Assembly: GCF_009914755.1 (NCBI RefSeq) | Contig: NC_060927.1 | Direction: 5' to 3' (one strand) | DNA length: 64,000 nt | Source: the human T2T-CHM13v2.0 reference genome, Homo sapiens | In this document: piece by piece, positions 5,700-54,064 of the stretch | Layout: every line of letters starts with the position of its first letter | How positions within the stretch are numbered: the stretch's first letter is position 1 | Translations under genes and position numbers: made by a program | The notes under the pieces: model-generated | Seen by the model: the letters and a program-made list of their open reading frames with translations, nothing else | The model's database searches: none | What the model was told of the DNA's origin: nothing

Positions 5700-6680
5700 A
5701 ATGAAGCTATAATACATTTGTATGTTAAATAATTCAAAAAGTACAGAGCATATTCAATAAAAGTCAGGTTTTCCTCCTACTTCAAAGACTCAGTCTACTT
5801 CTTTAGAGGCAATGGTCACTACTCTTAGAAGCATAGATTTATATCTATACTACACGTGTATCTATGTGTGTTTGTACATGAATATACTTTTTTCTCTGTA
5901 CAAATGGAAGCATATTATACACTAGTCTGAACCTTGATTTTGCACGACTTTTCAAGTAATGAAGATTTTTCCTGTCATATATATAAATCTGCCTCAATCT
6001 TTTGGATAGTTGCATAATAGTCCCTTGAAAAGATGAGTCATGTTTTATTTAAATGGTTTCCTGCTAATAAGACATTGGAAGCATTTCAAGTTTTTTGATA
6101 CTAAAAATGATATTTTTAATGGAAATAAGTCTTTATGCATACATGCAAATAGTTTTATAGGATAAATTACTAGAAGTAGAATTGCTGAACAAGTGTATGT
6201 GCATTTTTCATTTTGATAGCTATTGCCAACTATCCCTCCAAATAGATTTCACTAGATTACACATTTCCACATACCCTTACACACTTTACAAACTATCAAA
6301 CTTTTAGCTTTGCAAACTACAGGATAAAAATTATATCTATTATTTTTATTTGCATTTATTCAATTATCAGTGCAGCTGAGTATTTTTCATATGTTTATAA
6401 GTAATTTGTGTATCTTTTTCTCTGAGCTGTCTGTTCATATCCTTTGCCCAGTTTTGAATTGAATTATTGGCCTTTTTCTTATTGACTTTTGCATTTACAC
6501 AGTGACATTAGCTCTTGGTTTGTTACATGTTCATGTAAATGTTTTTTCTGGGTTATGATTTCTCTTTAAAAGTTGTCTATAATATTCCTATAGACAACTC
6601 AAAATTCCTATAGACAACGAATCAAAATATTTGATTTTTACAGTCAAATTTATCCTTTTTTTCTTTATAATGTCTGGGCA
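5700..6680 (-). mobile_element. Ancient L1 (L1ME-like) 3' fragment
   Basis: ggataaattactagaagtagaattgctg...tttgcattt...ctgttcatatcctttgccca antisense L1 3' motifs. Confidence 0.7.
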
Positions 6681-7825
6681 TCAGATGATCTTAATTATTC
6701 ATGAGACTACAATGCCCAGGTGTTGTATCATATTCAGATAAGTTGCTAAACTGTCTCAAGATGCAGAAAAGTTTGCAAAAGTATTCATACAATCTTTATT
6801 CTGGAGCACCAATAAGTAATAAATGACACCTTTCTGGATTTTTTTTCTTGAAGCCCGTTGTCAAGATTTTTGAAGTCTCTCAAAAACAGGATAGATGGCT
6901 CATGGATGTTCCCTACAGACACTGTGTCATGAATATTTAGGACTCCCCTCCACCGCTATTGAGAAGTTGCCACTTAATGTTTCAAAGAGAGCAAAGAAAT
7001 AGTTTTGGAAGAAACTGTATGTGTGTCTTAATCTAAAATTAATAACTATATTTCACTATCACTCACTGTAGAATGATATCTAATATTGTTGACATTCTAC
7101 CACTTTACAAAATTCTTACCTGTTCACTGTATAATTGATCTGCGTGACAAAACTAGCACAACAAAAGATTACCATCTCCATTTTGCTGATATGAAAATTA
7201 GGAAAGGCAGTGGCTTGCCCCAGCTTACATAGGTACCAAGTAGCAGAAAGAGGCTAGAAATTAGGTCTTTTGATCGTAGGCCCAAAGTTCCTTTAGTGCT
7301 ATAGCCTTTCTGGCTCCGCTCACTTACTATTTCTCCCCCTGCTGCTCAGATATGTCAGCAAAGAAGAAAGAGCTCCACAGAACCAAGCTCCTCAGCATGT
7401 AACACTGGGGGTTGGTGTTCAACAAGGAACACAGAGCTCTGCTTCTTACCCTGACAGGCCACCTTTCAGGATTGAAGCTCAGGATTGGAATCCAGATTGA
7501 TGCCATGTGGGCACCAGCTGATTTATGCTCAAGTTGAATGACATTTATGGACAAGAGCCACAGGAAAACTGACAGCAGAGACCTTGCTATTTTATGAAGG
7601 AAAATCACGTTTACAGTGCTGACCTACACATGCAAATTTACGGTCTCAACTGATCACAAGCCTCTTTGGGATCTCACTTCATCTGAGGATGAGCTGCCAC
7701 CCTAAATTATGGCACCAAAGATATAGTTCCAAATCTTCTGTTCAGGTCCTATGACTCTGACCTTGTCTACTTGTCAGGGAGAATAACAATGAAGACAGGC
7801 ATATCGAGCTATCTACTCAAATCAG

Positions 7826-44945: not shown

Positions 44946-45019
44946 CACTGACACCTGGTTTCAGGTGACTTTAAAAGGGACCTATTCTGAGAGACTCCGT
45001 TTCACAGGAGCTTCTTTCA

Positions 45020-45670
45020 GTGTGGCCAGGGCCCTCTAGGATCTCATTGCCCTTTCCTCCGTCTCCTCCCAGCCTCCCTGCACTTGCTGTCCTCCAGCCA
45101 TTCCTTGCCATTTCTTTTCAAAGGCACGCTCCTGCCTCAGGGCCTTTGCACTTACTGTCTTCCCCCACAAATAGCCCTGTTGCTCACTCCCCTCATATCC
45201 TCTGGTCTCTGCTCAGATGCTGCCCTATCAGAGAGAATCTCCTGACACAACCACTCTCCCCTTTCCTTTTCTTTCAGGGAATGGGCCACTCCTGGCACCC
45301 TGCACATTTTAGCATTTGTTTCCTGTCTCTCCCCACTAGAATGCAAGCTGCAGAGGAATTGTATCCGTAGCACCTGGTAAGTGCTCAATGACCACTTTTT
45401 CAAGGACCACATTTCCATAATATTAAAATGTATTATGAGAGGGAAGAGCAGTGAATTTTCCTGTTATCTGCACTGGCCACGTGTTGCCTGAGCATGTGCC
45501 TCTATGTGTGTAATTGAGTCTCTCTGTGCCTCACTTTCCTTGTCTGTTAAATGGGAGTTACAATATTATCACCTCCACAAAGTTATGGAAATTAAATCAC
45601 AGGTGGGGATTGTGCCTGGCAGGCAGCAAGCACTCGGTAAGTGTTAGCTATCTGATATTAACTATTATTT
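45020..45670. mobile_element. L2 3' relic (~45020-45390) and MIR (~45470-45670)
   Basis: cctcagggcctttgcacttactgt...cccactagaatgcaagct; tctctgtgcctcactttccttgtctgttaaatggg. Confidence 0.75.
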
Positions 45671-45708
45671 TGCTATGGATATGGGTGTGGACCATGTAAA
45701 AATGCAAG

Positions 45709-45767
45709 GCTTCAAAAGTAGACAACAACCTGCTTCAAAAGTAGACAACAACCTACTTCAAAAGTAG
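45709..45767. repeat. 23-bp tandem repeat, ~2.5 copies
   Basis: gcttcaaaagtagacaacaacct repeated. Confidence 0.9.
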
Positions 45768-47459
45768 GTATAAACACTTGGGGTTCATACCTAATGTGCC
45801 ACGAGATGGGCTTTGGACCTTCCAGATCTGAGCCACCTTTGGGAGGGTCGCGTGAAGGGAAGCTAGGCACTCCTGCTCAGCATGATTGGCAAGGTCCTTA
45901 TGCCAGCACTAGTGCCCAGAAAGTGCAGGCAGTTCCAGCTGTTGCCACAACTGCTGCCTAGACAATTGGCCTATCAGGGCAGTGTTGGGGGACCAGGGAT
46001 TGCAAGAGAACCAGCTTTTAAAAACAGCATTGAAGATAAAATGGCAAATAAAGACTAAAAGTTTTCAGAATCCTTGTCTCAGAAGGTTCTAGGCTGATCT
46101 GAAGGTTCTGAAACACAGACATGAGTCTTGTCTTGCTTGAACTTATCCTGTTTTTCACTTTCCTTGACAACTAGAAGTTATTTTATTTACCATATAAATA
46201 CTTTTCCAATGCTGTCTAAAACCATGCTTGTAATTAATATATCTGGAAACAACAATTAATAAATGATGTGTGTATTACTTTAAAATAAAAATAAAGGTTT
46301 CTATGTAATTTCCGTAATTAAGGAGATTAATATCTTACTTAACAGACTTACATCCAGAACTGCTCTCAGAACTGTTGTCCTGTCTTAAATGAAAACAAAG
46401 GTCAGGAAATGCACACACTGAATAAAGAGTAGAAATGATTTATTTTAAAAATCATACATTTTGTAAAAGAGATCCAAACTCAATTAATTTCTTTTCTAAA
46501 TTCTCCCTGAGTCCACAACCAGTCTGTTTCACATCAAAGGAGCCTGTTCGTCTTTGAAAATGGATAAAAGAGAATTTAATTGTTTGAATTTGAGCTCAAA
46601 TCACAAGTCTGGCTTTAATACTAATTTCATTTGGTGTCACCCAAGTCCTACCCAGCCTTGACTCGGCCCTGCTCCTCCAGTCTTACCCCTCTACCCACAC
46701 ATCTAGAAGGCTGACATGCACGACTTCAATGATACAACCTTGCAGAAAGCTGGAGTGGGAATGCCATTTCTCCATTGGCCTTCTCGTTCTTCTCTGTCAT
46801 CCCACCTCCAGCTGCTAACGCCCCAGGCCCCACTGCCCACTCCCAGCCTCCTTTCCACGTTGAGAGCCCAGGGAGGGCATCTAACCTACTCCCCAATCTG
46901 CAAATCTAATCTCCACCCCCAGAAGCACCCGACGTCTCTCCTACTCGACCTCACAGGTGCGCCCCATGCACAGTCCTGCCCAGCACAAGCACATGGCCTC
47001 ACTCCCACGTCTCCTTATTTCCCTGACACAGCCTCACCCTCCACTCAGGCTCAGGATTAAATGAGGAAATATAGGGAAAGATATGAACACTATTCTCAAA
47101 TCTTTCCCTCCCTCCATATAACTATAGACAACCAGAACCAAGGATCGGCAGTTGTTACATGGAGGAAGGAAAAAGATTTGAACTAATGAAAAGAACAATA
47201 ATAATAGCAGCTAATAGCGGCATATTTTTTTTCTTTTTTGAGACAAGATCTCACTATGTTGCCCAGGCTGAACTCAAAGAACTCCTGGGCTCAAGAGATC
47301 CTCCTGACTTAGCCTCAGAAGTAGCTGGAACTGCAGGTGGGCACCACCGCACATGGCTAATAGCAGATTTTTGTGAGTGCCCACTATGTGGTAGGCACTG
47401 TCTATATATTCTCATATACACATATGACTAATATGCATATACTTGTGTGTGTCTACATA

Positions 47460-47720
47460 AGCACAAACACTTCGCATATATCTCAATAATGGGGGTGGGG
47501 CTCAGCTAACCAGTTGAAGGCTTTAAGAGCAAAAATTGAGGTTTTAGAGGGAAGGAATTCTGCCGCGACTTTAGCATCAATTCTTGCACATTTCCTGCCT
47601 GTCCTGCACATTTCAGACTTGCCAGTCCCCACAATCACACAGGCCAATTCCTTGAAATGAATCTTTTCTATATCTTACATACAAATGCATATGTTTCTCT
47701 AGAGAACCCTGATACATACA
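47460..47720. mobile_element. MLT2-like LTR fragment
   Basis: cagttgaaggctttaagagcaaaaattgaggttt...tttcagacttgccagtccccacaatcac...tttctctagagaaccctga. Confidence 0.7.
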
Positions 47721-48348
47721 GGGGAAATCTGAAAATGGATTATCTGCGGCAGCAGGAGGAAGAAAAAGAGAGGCACAAGTGGCCCTGTGATGGTTAATAT
47801 TATGTGTCGGCTTGACTGGCCTGCAGCACCTGAACCCTGCCAGGCACCAGGAGGCTTCAGGGAGAACACGAGCTTGCTCAGATAATGAGGTCAAGTCCTC
47901 TAAGCCCCTCTGCCCTGCACCAGGTAAAAGATCAGAACAGGACAGTGGGAAGGGCCCGGAGAAGCATCTGCACCTGACTCCCCAGGGGCAAGGTGGGCTG
48001 GAGGTAGGTGACAAGGTTTGGCTCCCAAACGGGCACTGGCCAAAAACAAATGGACCAGCAGGGCCAAGTGACATGGCAGAAGACCAGGTGGGTGACTCGG
48101 TCAACACTTTCAAACATCCCCAAAGTTATAGTAAGCATCAAGAGACCACTTACTAGAGTCTCACTGTTAAGAGTAAAAAGAGATTGTGTATGCAAACAAT
48201 TAGAAAAATCAGAAATAACTAATGTTTAAACAAAACCTAACACCGTAATACTTCAAGACCTTTGGGCTCATAGTCTGCCTGACACATAGGAAGTGGACAG
48301 GATGGCTCAGAGCACTGTCAAGGACCTCACTTGACCTCCTGCAAGTCA

Positions 48349-48777
<429 letters not shown>

Positions 48778-49083
48778 TCAATGCTTCCAAGGTGTGTACC
48801 CTTTTGATCTGGCAATTCTGCCTAGAAGGTCATCTGAGGAAGTGGCCAGGAGAGCACAAACACACACATTTACAGATGCTCATCACAGTGTCACTTTGAG
48901 GACTTAAACAGAAACTCTGTGAGTTATAAGATCATTGAAGAGCTGTGACTTTAACCTCTCCACCTTACTTCCTCCCTAGATTCCTCTAGGAACAGAAAAA
49001 TACAGATTCCTCAAGAACTATTAGAATACATACATAAAACTTACTGACACGGAAGATGCCCACTTCATATGCGGTGTGCGTCA

Positions 49084-49800
<717 letters not shown>

Positions 49801-51599
49801 CTACAGCATTGTGAGGTGTTCATTATCTTTGGGCAGAAGGAATACATGTGATCTTTATTTTCTTCTTTCTTCTTACATTACTCTACATTTTCTGAACTTT
49901 TGCAAATCATATAAATAACTTAGAAATCACAATAAACAAAGCTATTGTTGTGCATCTGCAGGTGTCTCCTAAATGTTATAAGCCCTAAGATTACCCATAA
50001 GGGTAATTGAGAGTACTGAGAGGCTTCAATATCATCAAATTCATAATTACATCAAACAATATATTTATGAATAGATGTATTTCCAAAACAGGCCCCCTCA
50101 CCTTTTCTAGAGCTAAGATTTTGATCCATAAAGACTTACTTCTCCATTGCCTTCAATTAGACCAACCTGCAGAAAATAATAATAATAATAAGTACAATAT
50201 CTAGAAGAACTGCAAGGCAAATGTTAGCAAAATCATCCTTGTCAAATGTTTCTATAAAATATCAGAAGCAGATACATGACTGACATGCAAACTCCACCAA
50301 CAACCAGAAGAACGCCTAAGTCTTTGGAGCAATGCTGAAACTGTGGTTACTTCCAGTTACCAAAATGCCACACTCTCCTAGAAAATGGTTATGACTTGGA
50401 GAATCCATTAAAAATCAAGAAAGTTTTCATAACAGAGGAACATTTTCAAAAAAATAGAATGTTAAATGAAAAGTAGCATATGTTTATAATACAGAATATG
50501 AACACATAGTCAAGCATCCTAAGAAGGAATCTTACAGGAATTGTCAGCCTTATCTGGCTTCTCCAGAAATGCAAGACCTTCCATTCTGTCCCTATTCTAA
50601 GGGAAATGTCAGTTCCCAGGGGCAGGGCTCTTCCACGGATCCACAACCTAAGAGGAAGCCTCAGAGGCACAGGCTCTGGGAGTACCAGGTGGCAGCTTCA
50701 ACCCAGAAGCGCACTCGAGTGCAGTGCGCTTGAACTCTCCAGGTCAACTGTGGAAGGCCCCTTAGCTCAGGCAGTGGGATGGGTGATAGGAATGGGTTTA
50801 TTGACTTCATAGAGTATAAAATAAACAATTCAAATACACCCAAATGCACTCTTTCATAAAAGAAACTGAAGTAACAAATTCTGACCCCATGATGAGACCC
50901 CAGATAAACGTTAGGGGTCACCAGGGGTGAAGGGAACTGGCAACAAGTCAGGTGGCCAAGACTCAAAGCCTGCCAAGACCACTGGGCACTTTTTTGGACT
51001 TCCTGAAAACTCCACGTTCCTATAAAATACGAGAAAAACAAGAGCTTCCCATGAGCTCTTGACTATCCCAGGATCACACCCAGTTTGGGCTAGAAAGACC
51101 CCCATAAGGGATCCACCACAGTGAAACCAGTTGAACTGCCCTTTCCTGAGCCTCTCTGTGCTCCAGGCACTGCCCCATCCCTCCCACGAGACCTGATGGG
51201 AAGCGGGTTAAGGTGGTTTCATGTTGACCATGTGTCCACAGGCTTCGCAGACCAAGAGCAAGTCGGCACACCAGGACAGGCATTTGCATGGGTGCCCAGA
51301 AGTTTCAAGATCTGACCTTGGAGAGACCAGGTCCGGGAGGCTGCCGGGAAGTCTCCATCACACCGGCCTCAGCCGAGTCACAGGAACGCAGGCTCTGCCA
51401 TGCCCAGAAGCCTGAGATGCAACTTCAAGGACAACGGGAGCCAGAACGCTTGACCTCACACGGAAGGTGACTCCTAACCACCACCACACTTGACGTAGCA
51501 CCAGCACACGGAGATTAGGTGAGAGTGGGCTCTGGTGCAAAGATAACAGTGCTGGGGACCTGTAAGCCAGTCACTGACCAAAGGTGGATGTGGCCTGCT

Positions 51600-52250
51600 G
51601 GATAAGGGCAGGGGGAAAGGCTGGAGGGAAAGGCCACAAGGTTAAGAGCAGGTAGTAAGACCAGGTGACTGAGGCCTGGTGTGTGAGGCTAGAAGGACAG
51701 AGCACCCAGTTAAGGCAGGGTGGTTAAAGCAAAGTGGGCAAGGCCAGGAGAATAAGACTGGGTGAGTAGGACTAGGGGGCTGATAAGGCCAAGTAGAAAC
51801 TCTAGGTAAGTAAGGCAAAGTGGTATGGCCAAAAGCTAGTGCCAGGTGAGTAAGGCCTAATTGCTAAGGCCAGGAGATCAAAACCAGGTGGATAATACCA
51901 GGTGGGTAAGCACAATGGGTAAGACCATGAGGTTAAGACCAGGTGAGTAACACCAGAAGGTTAATAGAAACAGGCTGGTAAGGCAAGGAGGTTAAGGCCA
52001 GGTAAGTAAGAACAGGTAGGTAAGACTAGGGGGTAAGACCGGGGGACAAGGTCAGGAAGCTATGGCCAGATTGGTAAAACCAGAAGGTTAAGGCCACTAG
52101 TTGGGTAAGGAACAGTGGGTACAACCAGAAGTGGAAAGCTAAATCTGAAGGCCAGATGTAAAGGTCAGGTGTGTAAAGTACGATGAAGACCAGGTAAGTA
52201 AACTAGGAGGATAATGCAAGTTGGTAAAGCCATGAGAATAAAGCCAGCAG
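51600..52250 (+). repeat. Degenerate ~14-bp tandem array, consensus TAAGGCCAGGTRRG
   Basis: e.g. taagaccaggtgag taacaccagaaggt ... taaggcaaggaggt taaggccaggtaag taagaacaggtagg. Confidence 0.85.
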
Positions 52251-52398
52251 GGAAAGCCCGATCTGTGTAGTGTGAGTCAGAGCACACACTTTAGAGCCAG
52301 AAGGTTGGGCTCAGATTTCAGTTTCACCCTTTCCTAGATGAAGACTGGAGCAAGTGGAGTAGCTTCTCAGAGGTTCTTTGTCCATCACATAGTGATAA

Positions 52399-53600
52399 GG
52401 CCAGGTGCAGTGGCCCATACCTGTAATCTCAGTGCTTTGGGAGGCCAAGGTGAGCAGATCATTTGAGCCCAGAAGTTTGAGACCAGCCTGCGCAACATGG
52501 CAAAACCCCATCTCTAACAACAACAACAACAAACTCATAGTGATAAGAGGGTTTGTTAGGGAAATATGTTATTCAGTGAGGAGAGGCAGTTAAACCACTA
52601 GCTTAGTTCTGTAAATGCTGAGTCATTTCCAGATTGGAGAATGATTTAAGCAAAGATGGTGAGGAGGTTAGAAAGCTCTTAGGAAACGGTTGTCAACGGT
52701 AAACTCATGTCCCAGTTTGAAACATGAAACACTGTGAAACTATGAGAGGGCAGAAAAATAAGACTTCGGAAAAATGGAGGTGAGGGTCTAGAAGCCTCAA
52801 TGAAGTAGTAAAACAGGGTCTGGAAGGCGGGGCTGGTAGCAAAAGAAAAGAAGGTGTGTGATTCCAGATGCGGATTCCCAAGGTCAAAGTTTCAGTTGCC
52901 ACTCAAGCAATCTAACCCTTCTAACTGTCATCATTTTGTATCTTGATATTGTATATTATCAACTAATACAACTTTTTAATTTAAAAAGTTTTCTTAAAGG
53001 AAACTGATATTAAGGATTCACTTTTAAAATTATAAAGTTTGCCAGGTACAGTGGCTCACACCTGTAATCCTAGCACTTTAGCACTTTGGGAGACAGAGGC
53101 AGCAGGATGGCTTCAGACCAAGATTCAAGAACAGCCTGGGCCCCCTAGCAAGACCTCCATCTCTACAAAAAATAAACATTAGCCTGGTGTGGTGGTGTGT
53201 ACCTGTAGCCAGCTACTTGGAAGGCTGAGGCAGGATCTCTTGGGCCCAGGAGTTTAAGGCTGCAGTGAGCTATGATTGCACCACTGCACTCCAGCCTGAG
53301 CAACAGAGTAAGACCCTGTCTCAAAAAATAATACATAAAATAGTTATATTGAAGTGTATCCAGAGAAACCAGTGGGAATTTAAATTACTTTTGGTTGAAA
53401 TGGATTCTGAGGAAATTATACGGACAGAAAACTGAGATAATGTAAGTTGTATCTTGAATAAAAACTCTGATTTTGGCTGGGCATGGTCACTTACACCTGT
53501 AATCTCAGAGCTTTGGGAGGCTGAGGCAGGAGGATCACTTGAGCCCAGGGGTTCAAGACCAGCCTGGGCAACATAGGGAGACCCTCATGTCTAAAAAAAT
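52399..53600 (+). mobile_element. FLAM 52399-52533, AluJ 53040-53340, FLAM 53475-53600 (right arm only)
   Basis: Alu consensus; first element has TSD catagtgataag. Confidence 0.85.
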
Positions 53601-54064
53601 TTTTAAATAAATAAACTGGTTTTGGGGTGGGGTGGGTGGAGCTGGGGACGGAGGAGTAAAAAACATAATTGTCCCATCACTATAGCATTTAAAGATTTGA
53701 CTAAGCAAAACAAAAGCCCCAGCTTCTGGAGCAGAGGTGCTGGCACTGGTTCCACAGGCACCCACAGCACAAATCCCTGGAGGTCAGTGGGGTGCACAGC
53801 TAGTGTGGGAACACTTCAAATAGTCGGTGTGCTCAGCCAGGAGTGGAATTGGTTTGCTTTGGTCTGTTTTAGCAGTGCAGAAGCTTGATTGATTTGATTT
53901 CTTCATCCTTTACATTTTGGATTATATTTCACATCTTTCCCAATAAGTAACACACACAACCCAGTATTGGTTATCATATCATTCTGAAAAGCATCACAAG
54001 GGGCTAAGTAGCTGGACATCAAAGGAGTTTTAACCCACTCTTCTCTTTCTTCTGTCCTCCAGAA

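What the first reader, a model, noticed from the sequence alone, without database searches (positions are those of the whole stretch)
51600..52250. Degenerate 14-mer array packed with consensus 5' splice sites (U1-site array)
Seen: ~650 bp of ~14-nt units (TAAGGCCAGGTRRG-like; some alternation with ...CAGAAGGT suggests a 28-nt higher order). Unit junctions generate perfect donors CAGGTGAGT (51843, 51940) and CAGGTAAGT (51999, 52191), plus TAGGTAAGT (51803), GGGTGAGT (~51760), CAGGTGGGT, CAGGTAGGT and many GGTAAG, all on the + strand. The array abuts the inner end of the right arm and follows a TATA/exon-like segment. Known: U1 snRNP binding suppresses premature polyadenylation and promotes chromatin retention of lncRNAs. 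Inference: a + strand transcript could carry a multivalent U1 platform or alternative-donor cassette. It may instead be a neutral decayed minisatellite or an internal repeat of an old LTR element.
Basis: partly seen in the sequence, partly recalled or inferred. Interest (0 to 1): 0.7.

Follow-up and report, generated by a model that had tools for sequence, protein, structure and literature searches.

The report
Decayed 14-base repeat array, donor-like
A 675-base stretch in an intron of the human non-coding gene LINC01100 is a worn-down copy of an old 14-base tandem repeat found at seven places in the genome; its unit happens to look like a splice donor site, and nothing in the sequence shows that this likeness has been kept by selection.

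Summary
Window 51582-52256 (+) is a degenerate array of about 48 units of 14 nt, consensus GGCCAGGTGGGTAA. It carries 4 perfect CAGGTRAGT donors and 9 sites matching at least 8 of 9, all on the + strand.

It is not a local invention. The same unit, with the same per-position decay profile, builds arrays at six other places: chr1, chr2 (two), chr3 about 51 kb downstream, chr4 and chr13. Some span 13-19 kb and have a ~1.5-kb higher-order repeat. The chr4 and chr13 loci also share about 3.7 kb of 5' flank with the window.

The unit pairs with 12 of the first 13 nt of U1 snRNA (10 Watson-Crick, 2 G.U), so donor density comes from the repeat itself.

Tests for donor-directed selection were negative. 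The GT positions are no better kept than other G or T positions, within arrays or between 81-87% identical paralogous copies. With unit profile and unit type held fixed, the excess of perfect donors is marginal (31 of 1000 permutations).

One oddity remains: the window copy has more perfect donors than any 675-bp stretch of the other arrays.

Best reading: a neutral relic lying 63 nt inside LINC01100 intron 2. U1 binding is plausible but untested. Dfam, cross-species and RNA data were not available. Interest is low to moderate.

The parts
51582..52256 (+). Degenerate tandem array of about 48 units of 14 nt, consensus GGCCAGGTGGGTAA. It is 70% purine on the + strand and has 2 CpG.
51843..51851 (+). 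Perfect donor 9-mer CAGGTGAGT. Further perfect sites: 51940-51948 CAGGTGAGT, 51999-52007 CAGGTAAGT, 52191-52199 CAGGTAAGT.
   Evidence: U1 pairing of 12 contiguous nt at 51997 and 11 at 52189
51242..51518 (+). LINC01100 exon 2 (RefSeq NR_104132.1). Its donor AG|GTGAGA at 51519 lies 63 nt upstream of the array, so the array sits in intron 2.
   Evidence: hub annotation; boundaries read
47820..51574 (+). 5' flanking block, interrupted by Alus. It is colinear with the array-adjacent flank on chr4 (68-69% identity) and chr13 (71-77% in patches). Only these three copies were found in the genome.
47360..47722 (+). 3' part of a high-copy interspersed LTR-like repeat (ERVL/MaLR type by recall). It also lies just 5' of the arrays on chr1 and chr2:175.2 Mb.
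44950..47221 (+). Stretch 80-84.6% identical to the sequence beside the chr1 array (reverse orientation), read as an old segmental duplication.
52391..52530 (+).
52237..52242 (+). The single AATAAA hexamer at the 3' edge of the array.

Best explanation
Window 51582-52256 is a decayed remnant of about 48 units from an ancient, low-copy, strand-asymmetric 14-nt tandem-repeat family with consensus GGCCAGGTGGGTAA. The family was spread to at least seven places in the human genome by old duplications. At some of them it was expanded in place into arrays spanning 13-19 kb with a ~1.5-kb higher-order repeat.

The unit is by its own sequence a near-complement of the 5' end of U1 snRNA. Any copy therefore looks like a string of splice donors on one strand. 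G-to-A decay at unit positions 9 and 10 turns CAGGTGGGT into CAGGTGAGT or CAGGTAAGT.

In this window the array happens to lie sense to LINC01100, in intron 2, 63 nt after the annotated exon-2 donor. It is removed with that intron.

Shown: the array, its family, the shared flanks, the U1 complementarity, and the lack of donor-specific conservation. Inferred: that it is selectively neutral. Also inferred: that U1 snRNP would bind the nascent + strand RNA as it binds other intronic donor-like sites, without a selected role. The upstream annotated donor being the one used fits the upstream-first choice shown experimentally for the F7 IVS7 repeat.
For: Family:
- The array query finds 14-mer arrays on chr1 and chr2.
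- A two-unit pattern gives 144 matches against 7 for the reversed control. A stricter pattern gives 31 against 1.
- Of those 31 matches, all listed, 28 fall in six of the clusters and 3 are single sites: chr10 and chr16, which are Alu-internal, and chr5:155627577, not examined. The seventh cluster, chr2:175.2 Mb, came. Of the 144 matches, 100 were listed.
- About 2000 units from nine fetched stretches give the same consensus and the same per-position profile, including the same T/A dimorphism at position 8 and G/T at position 11. The two variants are linked in every locus.
- Every array is on one strand relative to its unit. No opposite-strand segment was found in any of the nine stretches.

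Age:
- Window 47818-51574 is 68-69% identical to chr4, and the array follows in the same order.
- chr13 is colinear over 48086-51056 plus the array.
- Window 44950-47221 is 80-84.6% identical to chr1.
- The large arrays have ~1.5-kb higher-order copies that are 70-87% identical.

Donor-likeness is built in: the consensus pairs with U1 nt 1-13 at 10 Watson-Crick and 2 G.U positions. The family arrays carry 4.6-10.5 sites per kb with at least 8 of 9 matches on the sense strand and 0 on the antisense strand.

No donor-specific constraint:
- Retention follows base type.
- Between paralogous copies, the fraction of differing sites is G7 0.144, T8 0.126, G11 0.135, against 0.122-0.166 at the other G, C and A5 positions.
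- Column permutation within unit type gives a mean of 1.37 perfect donors, and 31 of 1000 permutations reach the observed 4. For sites with at least 7 of 9 matches there is no excess (693 of 1000).

No protein-domain signal: 56 stop-to-stop ORFs of at least 50 aa between 44975 and 52202 gave no Pfam match at E <= 0.01. These were 56 of the 73 ORFs listed; I left out the 17 that lie in Alus or outside the element.

F7 precedent: silent downstream pseudo-donors in a VNTR (abstract read).
Against: The window copy is richer in top-quality donors than its relatives.
- It has 4 perfect sites in 675 bp. The mean is 0.54 and the maximum 3 over 465 sliding 675-bp windows of the other arrays. Those windows overlap, and a 3-kb overlap between two loci is counted twice.
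- GGTAAGTAA occurs in 3 of 50 window units against 5 of 2067 family units.
- Plain column permutation reaches 4 perfect sites in only 2 of 1000 trials.

This could reflect weak selection for U1 pairing in a copy that is transcribed in sense. It could also be chance or a local copying of variant units.

T12, A13 and A14 change about half as fast as the other positions (0.067-0.092). That is only partly explained by A/T bias, since A5 is at 0.122 and T8 at 0.126.

No cross-species alignment, RNA-seq, CLIP or Dfam search was possible here, so neutrality is inferred and not shown.
Confidence: 0.75

Rival explanations
1. Functional multivalent U1 platform or alternative-donor cassette. The nascent LINC01100 RNA recruits several U1 snRNPs to the array just after exon 2. 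This would reinforce exon definition, suppress the AATAAA at 52237 and other intronic poly(A) signals (telescripting), tether the transcript to chromatin, or provide alternative donors.
For: - There are 5 sites with at least 10 of 13 Watson-Crick pairs to U1 nt 1-13, including runs of 12 and 11 contiguous pairs.
- The array is sense to LINC01100 and 63 nt from its exon-2 donor (hub annotation).
- The window copy has more perfect donors than any comparable stretch of the family.
- A single CAGGUGAGU site can retain a reporter RNA on chromatin, and U1 sites cluster in Malat1 repeats (passages of bioRxiv 10.1101/310433 read).
Against: - The donor-likeness is inherited from a repeat unit shared by seven loci.
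- GT positions show no preferential conservation within arrays or between paralogues.
- The excess of perfect donors is marginal once unit type is held fixed (31 of 1000) and rests on 4 sites.
- By the RefSeq model the array is intronic, so it is absent from the mature RNA.
- LINC01100 occurs in the text of only 3 papers in the library. Judged by their titles, none is a study of this gene (search listing only).
Confidence: 0.1
2. Internal tandem-repeat region of a catalogued transposable element (for example a non-autonomous LTR element) that I could not name without Dfam/RepeatMasker. The seven loci would then be element copies and not duplications.
For: - An LTR-like high-copy repeat, followed by the same ~65 nt, lies just 5' of the array in the window and on chr2:175.2 Mb. 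On chr1 the same repeat lies upstream with only Alu sequence between it and the array.
- The chr4, chr13 and window copies share a left boundary within about 30 bp, near window 47820-47850, as a discrete element would.
Against: - 28 other copies of the LTR-like repeat have no array within 1.5 kb: 0-3 scattered unit hits each, against 9 at the chr2 locus.
- No LTR was found upstream on chr4 or chr13.
- The five loci compared share no 3' flank.
- No Pfam domain was found in the flank ORFs.
- There are only seven clusters genome-wide.
- The 13-19 kb spans with 1.5-kb higher-order repeats exceed element size.
- The window-chr1 homology extends 2.3 kb beyond the LTR into other sequence.
Confidence: 0.12
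3. A DNA-level element: a cluster of CAGGTG/CAGGTA E-box-type sites acting as a transcription-factor platform or recombination-prone minisatellite, independent of RNA.
For: CAGGTG occurs 6 times and CAGGT[AG] 10 times in 675 bp, against 0.62 and 0.81 per kb in the rest of the window. Which factors bind such boxes is recalled, not tested.
Against: The motif density is again a by-product of the unit. No RefSeq functional element is listed over 51582-52256 in the hub table. There is no conservation signal at these positions.
Confidence: 0.03

Closest known systems
F7 intron 7 (IVS7) 37-bp VNTR with repeated 5' pseudo-splice sites (Borensztajn et al. 2006, PMC1557585; abstract read)
   Same: A tandem repeat placed at or just after an exon's donor, so that the used donor is followed by a series of donor-like sites. 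In F7 the downstream sites are functional but silent because the most upstream one is chosen. Here too the annotated donor (51519) lies upstream of all array sites.
   Different: In F7 the first repeat unit spans the exon-intron boundary and the pseudo-sites are identical to the authentic site. Here the array starts 63 nt into the intron. Its units are 14 nt and heavily diverged. Several array sites pair with U1 better than the annotated donor TAG|GTGAGA. The repeat also belongs to a multi-locus family.
U1 recognition motifs as chromatin-retention signals in lncRNAs (Yin et al., bioRxiv 10.1101/310433; passages read)
   Same: The same motif (CAGGUGAGU-type pairing to the U1 5' end). Clustering of several sites within repeats of a non-coding RNA is reported there for mouse Malat1 repeats E and M.
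   Different: Those elements lie in mature or retained transcripts and were shown by reporter and U1-binding data. This array is intronic by annotation, has no binding or localisation data, and shows no conservation of the motif.
Degenerate minisatellites / low-copy tandem-repeat families with higher-order structure
   Same: Head-to-tail short units, unit variants, ~1.5-kb higher-order copies in the large arrays, and strand asymmetry.
   Different: The unit is almost fully complementary to the U1 5' end. I found no paper printing the unit: six rotations or two-unit strings searched, with one unrelated hit. Whether Dfam or RepeatMasker names the family could not be checked.

Membership tests
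Minisatellite-type tandem repeat array | Head-to-tail copies of a 10-100 nt unit | tested here: met
   Lag-14 identity 0.47; Tandem Repeats Finder period-14 rows; 47-48 units in the wrap-around alignment.
Minisatellite-type tandem repeat array | The same unit in independent arrays elsewhere (a repeat family) | tested here: met
   Seven clusters with the same consensus and profile.
Internal repeat of a known LTR element | The array regularly accompanies the element's LTR or internal sequence | tested here: not met
   The LTR-like repeat adjoins 3 of 7 arrays. 28 other copies lack arrays within 1.5 kb. No LTR on chr4 or chr13. No common 3' flank.
Internal repeat of a known LTR element | Match to a curated consensus (Dfam/Repbase) | not testable with these tools
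   No TE library is held. My naming of the LTR as ERVL/MaLR type is from recall only.
Internal repeat of a known LTR element | Retroelement protein remnants in the adjoining internal region | tested here: not met
   0 of 56 ORFs of at least 50 aa (44975-52202) match Pfam at E <= 0.01.
Functional U1-binding element (chromatin retention / telescripting platform) | Sequence complementary to the U1 snRNA 5' end on the transcribed strand | tested here: met
   5 sites with at least 10 of 13 Watson-Crick pairs, with runs of 12 and 11. Sense to LINC01100 (hub annotation).
Functional U1-binding element (chromatin retention / telescripting platform) | Motif positions conserved above neighbouring positions | tested here: not met
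   Within-array retention and between-paralogue substitution show no advantage for G7/T8 or G11. A cross-species test was not possible.
Functional U1-binding element (chromatin retention / telescripting platform) | U1 snRNP binding in cells and an effect on RNA fate | not testable with these tools
   No CLIP, RAP or RNA-seq data are held.
F7-IVS7-type donor VNTR | The first repeat unit spans the exon-intron boundary, so the authentic donor is itself a repeat copy | tested here: not met
   The array starts at 51582 and the donor is at 51519. The interval 51529-51574 aligns to the non-array flank on chr4.

The most novel reading that the evidence does not exclude
The seven-locus GGCCAGGTGGGTAA family is a set of natural high-valency U1 snRNP landing pads. 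The arrays span about 43 kb in all, Alu and other insertions included. Each unit pairs with up to 12-13 nt of the U1 5' end.

The largest array spans at least 19 kb, with 13.9 kb of unit sequence or about 1000 units detected in the stretches fetched. It lies within the span of the minus-strand lncRNA IL12A-AS1 in sense orientation. The window copy lies sense in LINC01100 and has drifted, or been selected, towards perfect donors.

Transcribed arrays would hold nascent RNA on chromatin, or locally soak up U1, near IL12A.
Probability: 0.06. Interest if true: 0.7.

Novelty: new member of a known kind. Interest (0 to 1): 0.3.

Why it matters
As it stands, the finding is a caution. A dense run of textbook splice donors can come straight from the sequence of a repeat unit, and it should be judged against the repeat's own relatives and not against shuffled sequence.

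If the minority reading were true, these arrays would be the densest natural clusters of U1-complementary sites that I know of. That comparison is from my own knowledge and comes from no call. They lie inside two lncRNA transcription units next to IL12A, which would give a direct handle on how U1 valency affects RNA retention and premature termination.

Tried and rejected
- Rfam scan of 50000-54000 at E <= 1: only Alu/7SL-derived hits, and none in the array.
- L1 or ERV coding origin of the flank: no Pfam hits.
- The LTR-like repeat as carrier of the array: rejected.
- A common 3' end for the arrays, as a TE terminus or 3' LTR would give: none among the five loci compared.
- Inversion model linking the small + array to the large - array 51 kb away. 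The sequence beyond the right end of the large chr3 array shares only Alus with the chr1 LTR side. The window array is only 69-80% identical over short stretches to the start of the chr1 array. The model is left unresolved.
- 28-nt higher-order repeat: rejected.
- Higher-order repeat within the window array: only a weak rise of autocorrelation at lags 127-195 (0.37-0.40 against 0.34 at lags 86-113). Not convincing.
- Single matches on chr16 and chr10: small duplications inside Alus, not family arrays.
- Literature. No paper prints the unit. LINC01100 occurs in the text of 3 papers, which I saw only as a search listing. A search for U1 sponge or decoy repeats returned only circRNA reviews.

Full report
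**1. What is there**

The stretch is human (T2T chr3, hub note). Read directly, window 51600-52260 is purine-rich and visibly repetitive.

- The fraction of identical bases peaks at lag 14 (0.47), with weaker peaks at 27/28, 41 and 55. Background is about 0.24-0.29.
- Tandem Repeats Finder reports only patches, for example 51883-52045 (period 14, 11.7 copies, 63% matches). This shows how decayed the array is.
- A wrap-around alignment to a 14-mer resolves 47-48 units with consensus GGCCAGGTGGGTAA.
- A scan of all 64 kb for the unit in any rotation, with 3 or fewer mismatches, gives exactly one segment, 51582-52256, on the + strand. It gives none on the - strand.

**2. The donors**

- CAGGTGAGT starts at 51843 and 51940, CAGGTAAGT at 51999 and 52191, and TAGGTAAGT at 51803.
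- The array has 4 perfect CAGGTRAGT sites, 9 with at least 8 of 9 matches and 14 with at least 7 of 9 on the + strand, and none on the - strand.
- The rest of the window has 0.016 and 0.22 sites per kb for the first two classes.
- None of 1000 dinucleotide-preserving shuffles reaches these counts.

I took a U1 gene from this genome by its Rfam model. Its first 13 nt are ATACTTACCTGGC. The consensus unit GCCAGGTGGGTAA pairs with 10 of these by Watson-Crick pairs and 2 more by G.U. Window units at 51997 and 52189 pair over 12 and 11 contiguous nt.

The suggested 28-nt higher order does not hold. There are two unit types, T8-G11 (..GGTGGGTAA) and A8-T11 (..GGAGGTTAA), and they are intermixed without alternation.

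The 'arms' are Alus in opposite orientation.

**3. It is one member of a family**

Searching the window's own genome with the array found similar arrays on chr1 and chr2.

- A two-unit pattern with 3 or fewer mismatches gave 144 matches against 7 for the reversed control. 100 of the 144 were listed.
- A stricter pattern gave 31 matches against 1, all listed.
- Of the 31, 28 fall in six clusters: the window; chr3:162.853-162.872 Mb, about 51 kb downstream and on the opposite strand; chr1:230.679-230.692 Mb; chr2:187.469-187.475 Mb; chr4:106.805-106.809 Mb; and chr13:112.868 Mb.
- The seventh cluster, chr2:175.207 Mb, came.
- The other 3 are single sites. Those on chr10 and chr16 are small duplications inside Alus. 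The one at chr5:155627577 was not examined.

Array sequence detected in the stretches I fetched ranges from 0.35 kb (chr13) to several kb per 10-kb stretch. The chr3 downstream array spans at least 19 kb and the chr1 array about 13 kb, Alu insertions included.

About 2000 units from these loci give the same consensus and nearly the same per-position profile as the window copy. That includes the T/A split at position 8 and the G/T split at position 11.

The large arrays are built of ~1.5-kb higher-order copies that are 70-87% identical. The best chr3-chr1 matches are 85-87%.

**4. Flanks**

Window 47818-51574 is interrupted by Alus. It holds LINC01100 exon 2 and an IL12A-AS1 exon.

- It is colinear with the sequence just 5' of the chr4 array at 68-69% identity.
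- It is colinear in patches with the chr13 locus at 71-77%.
- No other copy of this block was found in the genome.
- The three copies begin to align within about 30 bp of each other.

Further 5', window 44950-47221 is 80-84.6% identical to the sequence beside the chr1 array. This stretch contains what I recognise from recall as MIR elements, so I read it as an old segmental duplication.

Between the two lies a ~390-bp repeat with hundreds of copies (733 first-look candidates, 40 scored). I recognise it, from recall only, as an ERVL/MaLR-type LTR.

- It sits just 5' of the array in the window, on chr1 and on chr2:175.2 Mb.
- 28 other copies have no array within 1.5 kb.
- It is absent upstream on chr4 and chr13.

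The 3' ends of five arrays abut unrelated sequence. No Pfam domain was found in 56 ORFs of at least 50 aa across 44975-52202.

A Jukes-Cantor correction of 68% and 84.5% identity gives about 0.42 and 0.17 substitutions per site. This is my own arithmetic. Those distances put the duplications at tens of millions to about 100 million years or more, depending on the rate assumed.

The origin of the family therefore stays open between old duplications and a very low-copy element. An abundant known TE is unlikely.

**5. Is the donor-likeness selected?**

I ran three tests.

(a) Within arrays, retention of the consensus base follows base type. A5, T12, A13 and A14 are kept at 0.80-0.94. The G and C positions are kept at 0.56-0.88. 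The donor positions are unremarkable or low: G7 0.61-0.84, T8 0.48-0.67, G11 0.44-0.59.

(b) I compared seven pairs of paralogous higher-order copies (81-87% identical, about 800-880 aligned sites per phase). The fraction of differing sites is 0.144 at G7, 0.126 at T8 and 0.135 at G11. It is 0.122-0.166 at the other G, C and A5 positions. Only T12, A13 and A14 are slower, at 0.067-0.092. That does not fit a donor, where G+1 should be the most constrained.

(c) I permuted bases within unit columns.
- Plain permutation gives a mean of 0.74 perfect donors, and 2 of 1000 trials reach the observed 4.
- Keeping unit type fixed gives a mean of 1.37, and 31 of 1000 reach it.
- For sites with at least 8 of 9 matches, the figures are 22 and 82 of 1000.
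- For sites with at least 7 of 9, there is no excess.

So nearly all of the donor density comes from the unit itself.

**6. What speaks for something more**

The window copy is the richest in top-quality donors among all arrays examined.

- No 675-bp window out of 465 overlapping ones in the other loci has 4 perfect sites. The mean is 0.54 and the maximum 3.
- GGTAAGTAA occurs in 3 of 50 window units against 5 of 2067 family units.

The overall G-to-A frequencies at positions 9 and 10 are the same as in the family. The excess therefore comes from these changes falling in otherwise intact units. The numbers are small, and I leave this unexplained.

**7. How it most likely works**

By the RefSeq model the array lies in LINC01100 intron 2, and it starts 63 nt after the exon-2 donor TTAG|GTGAGA. 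It is antisense to IL12A-AS1.

The most likely state is a neutral relic that is spliced out with the intron. U1 snRNP probably contacts it on nascent RNA, as it does other intronic donor-like sites, but that is inference.

The use of the upstream donor matches the upstream-first rule shown for the F7 IVS7 repeat (abstract). A role in chromatin retention or telescripting, as described for U1 motifs in lncRNAs (passages), is possible but unsupported.

**8. Limits**

- No TE library, no other vertebrate genome and no expression or CLIP data were available.
- Exons of IL12A-AS1 outside the window are not listed. So I can only say that the large chr3 array lies within that gene's span and in its sense orientation.
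- The names MIR, ERVL/MaLR and Alu monomer come from recall, supported for Alu by 7SL-model hits.

Noticed in passing
outside the window: T2T chr3:162852925-162871958 (window scale about 102925-121958), loci L022, L023, L067: A span of at least 19 kb of the same 14-mer on the minus strand, interrupted by Alus, with ~1.5-kb and ~6.5-kb higher-order copies. It lies within the span of the minus-strand gene IL12A-AS1 and in its sense orientation. It is inverted relative to the window array.
   Followed up: partly
L024/L025 (T2T chr1:230679022-230692034): An array of about 13 kb with a 1.52-kb higher-order period (self-matches offset by about 1520 bp, 70-79% identical). Its best matches to the chr3 downstream array are 85-87% identical, and some 28-mers are identical between the two loci.
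   Followed up: partly
window 51803, 51999, 52191 (+): Three units read GGTAAGTAA (3 of 50), against 5 of 2067 units in the other arrays. This copy has more perfect donors than any comparable stretch of its relatives. The cause is unknown: chance, local copying or selection.
   Followed up: partly
family arrays, unit positions 12-14 (TAA): Between paralogous copies these three positions change about half as often (0.067-0.092) as the others (0.122-0.166), including the other A and T positions (A5 0.122, T8 0.126).
   Followed up: no
L071 (chr16:78477992) and L072 (chr10:87435291): The A8-T11 unit type (CCAGGAGGTTAAGA) closely resembles the Alu/7SL segment CAGGAGTTnAAGACCAG. Small duplications of that segment inside Alus match the two-unit pattern. 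This may be coincidence, or a hint at how such a unit could arise.
   Followed up: no
window 45281-45376 and 45500-45640 (+): LINC01100 exon 1 and the sequence after it look like MIR-type SINE remnants (recognised from recall, no tool test). The first exon of this lncRNA appears to be repeat-derived.
   Followed up: no
window 47786-47819 (+): A 34-nt piece matching the 5' terminus of a high-copy LTR-type repeat (90-94% identical to four other genomic sites). It is inserted between the LTR-like repeat and the block shared with chr4.
   Followed up: no
L020 about 6520-6700, minus strand (chr2:175.2 Mb): Next to the chr2 array there is a stretch that reads like the start of a histone H3.3 coding sequence followed by an A-run, probably a processed pseudogene. 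Recognised from recall.
   Followed up: no
window 53182-53324 and 53243-53302: Sub-threshold Rfam hits to mir-3135, mir-1268 and mir-1285 all lie inside Alu copies. They are Alu-derived look-alikes, not separate genes.
   Followed up: no
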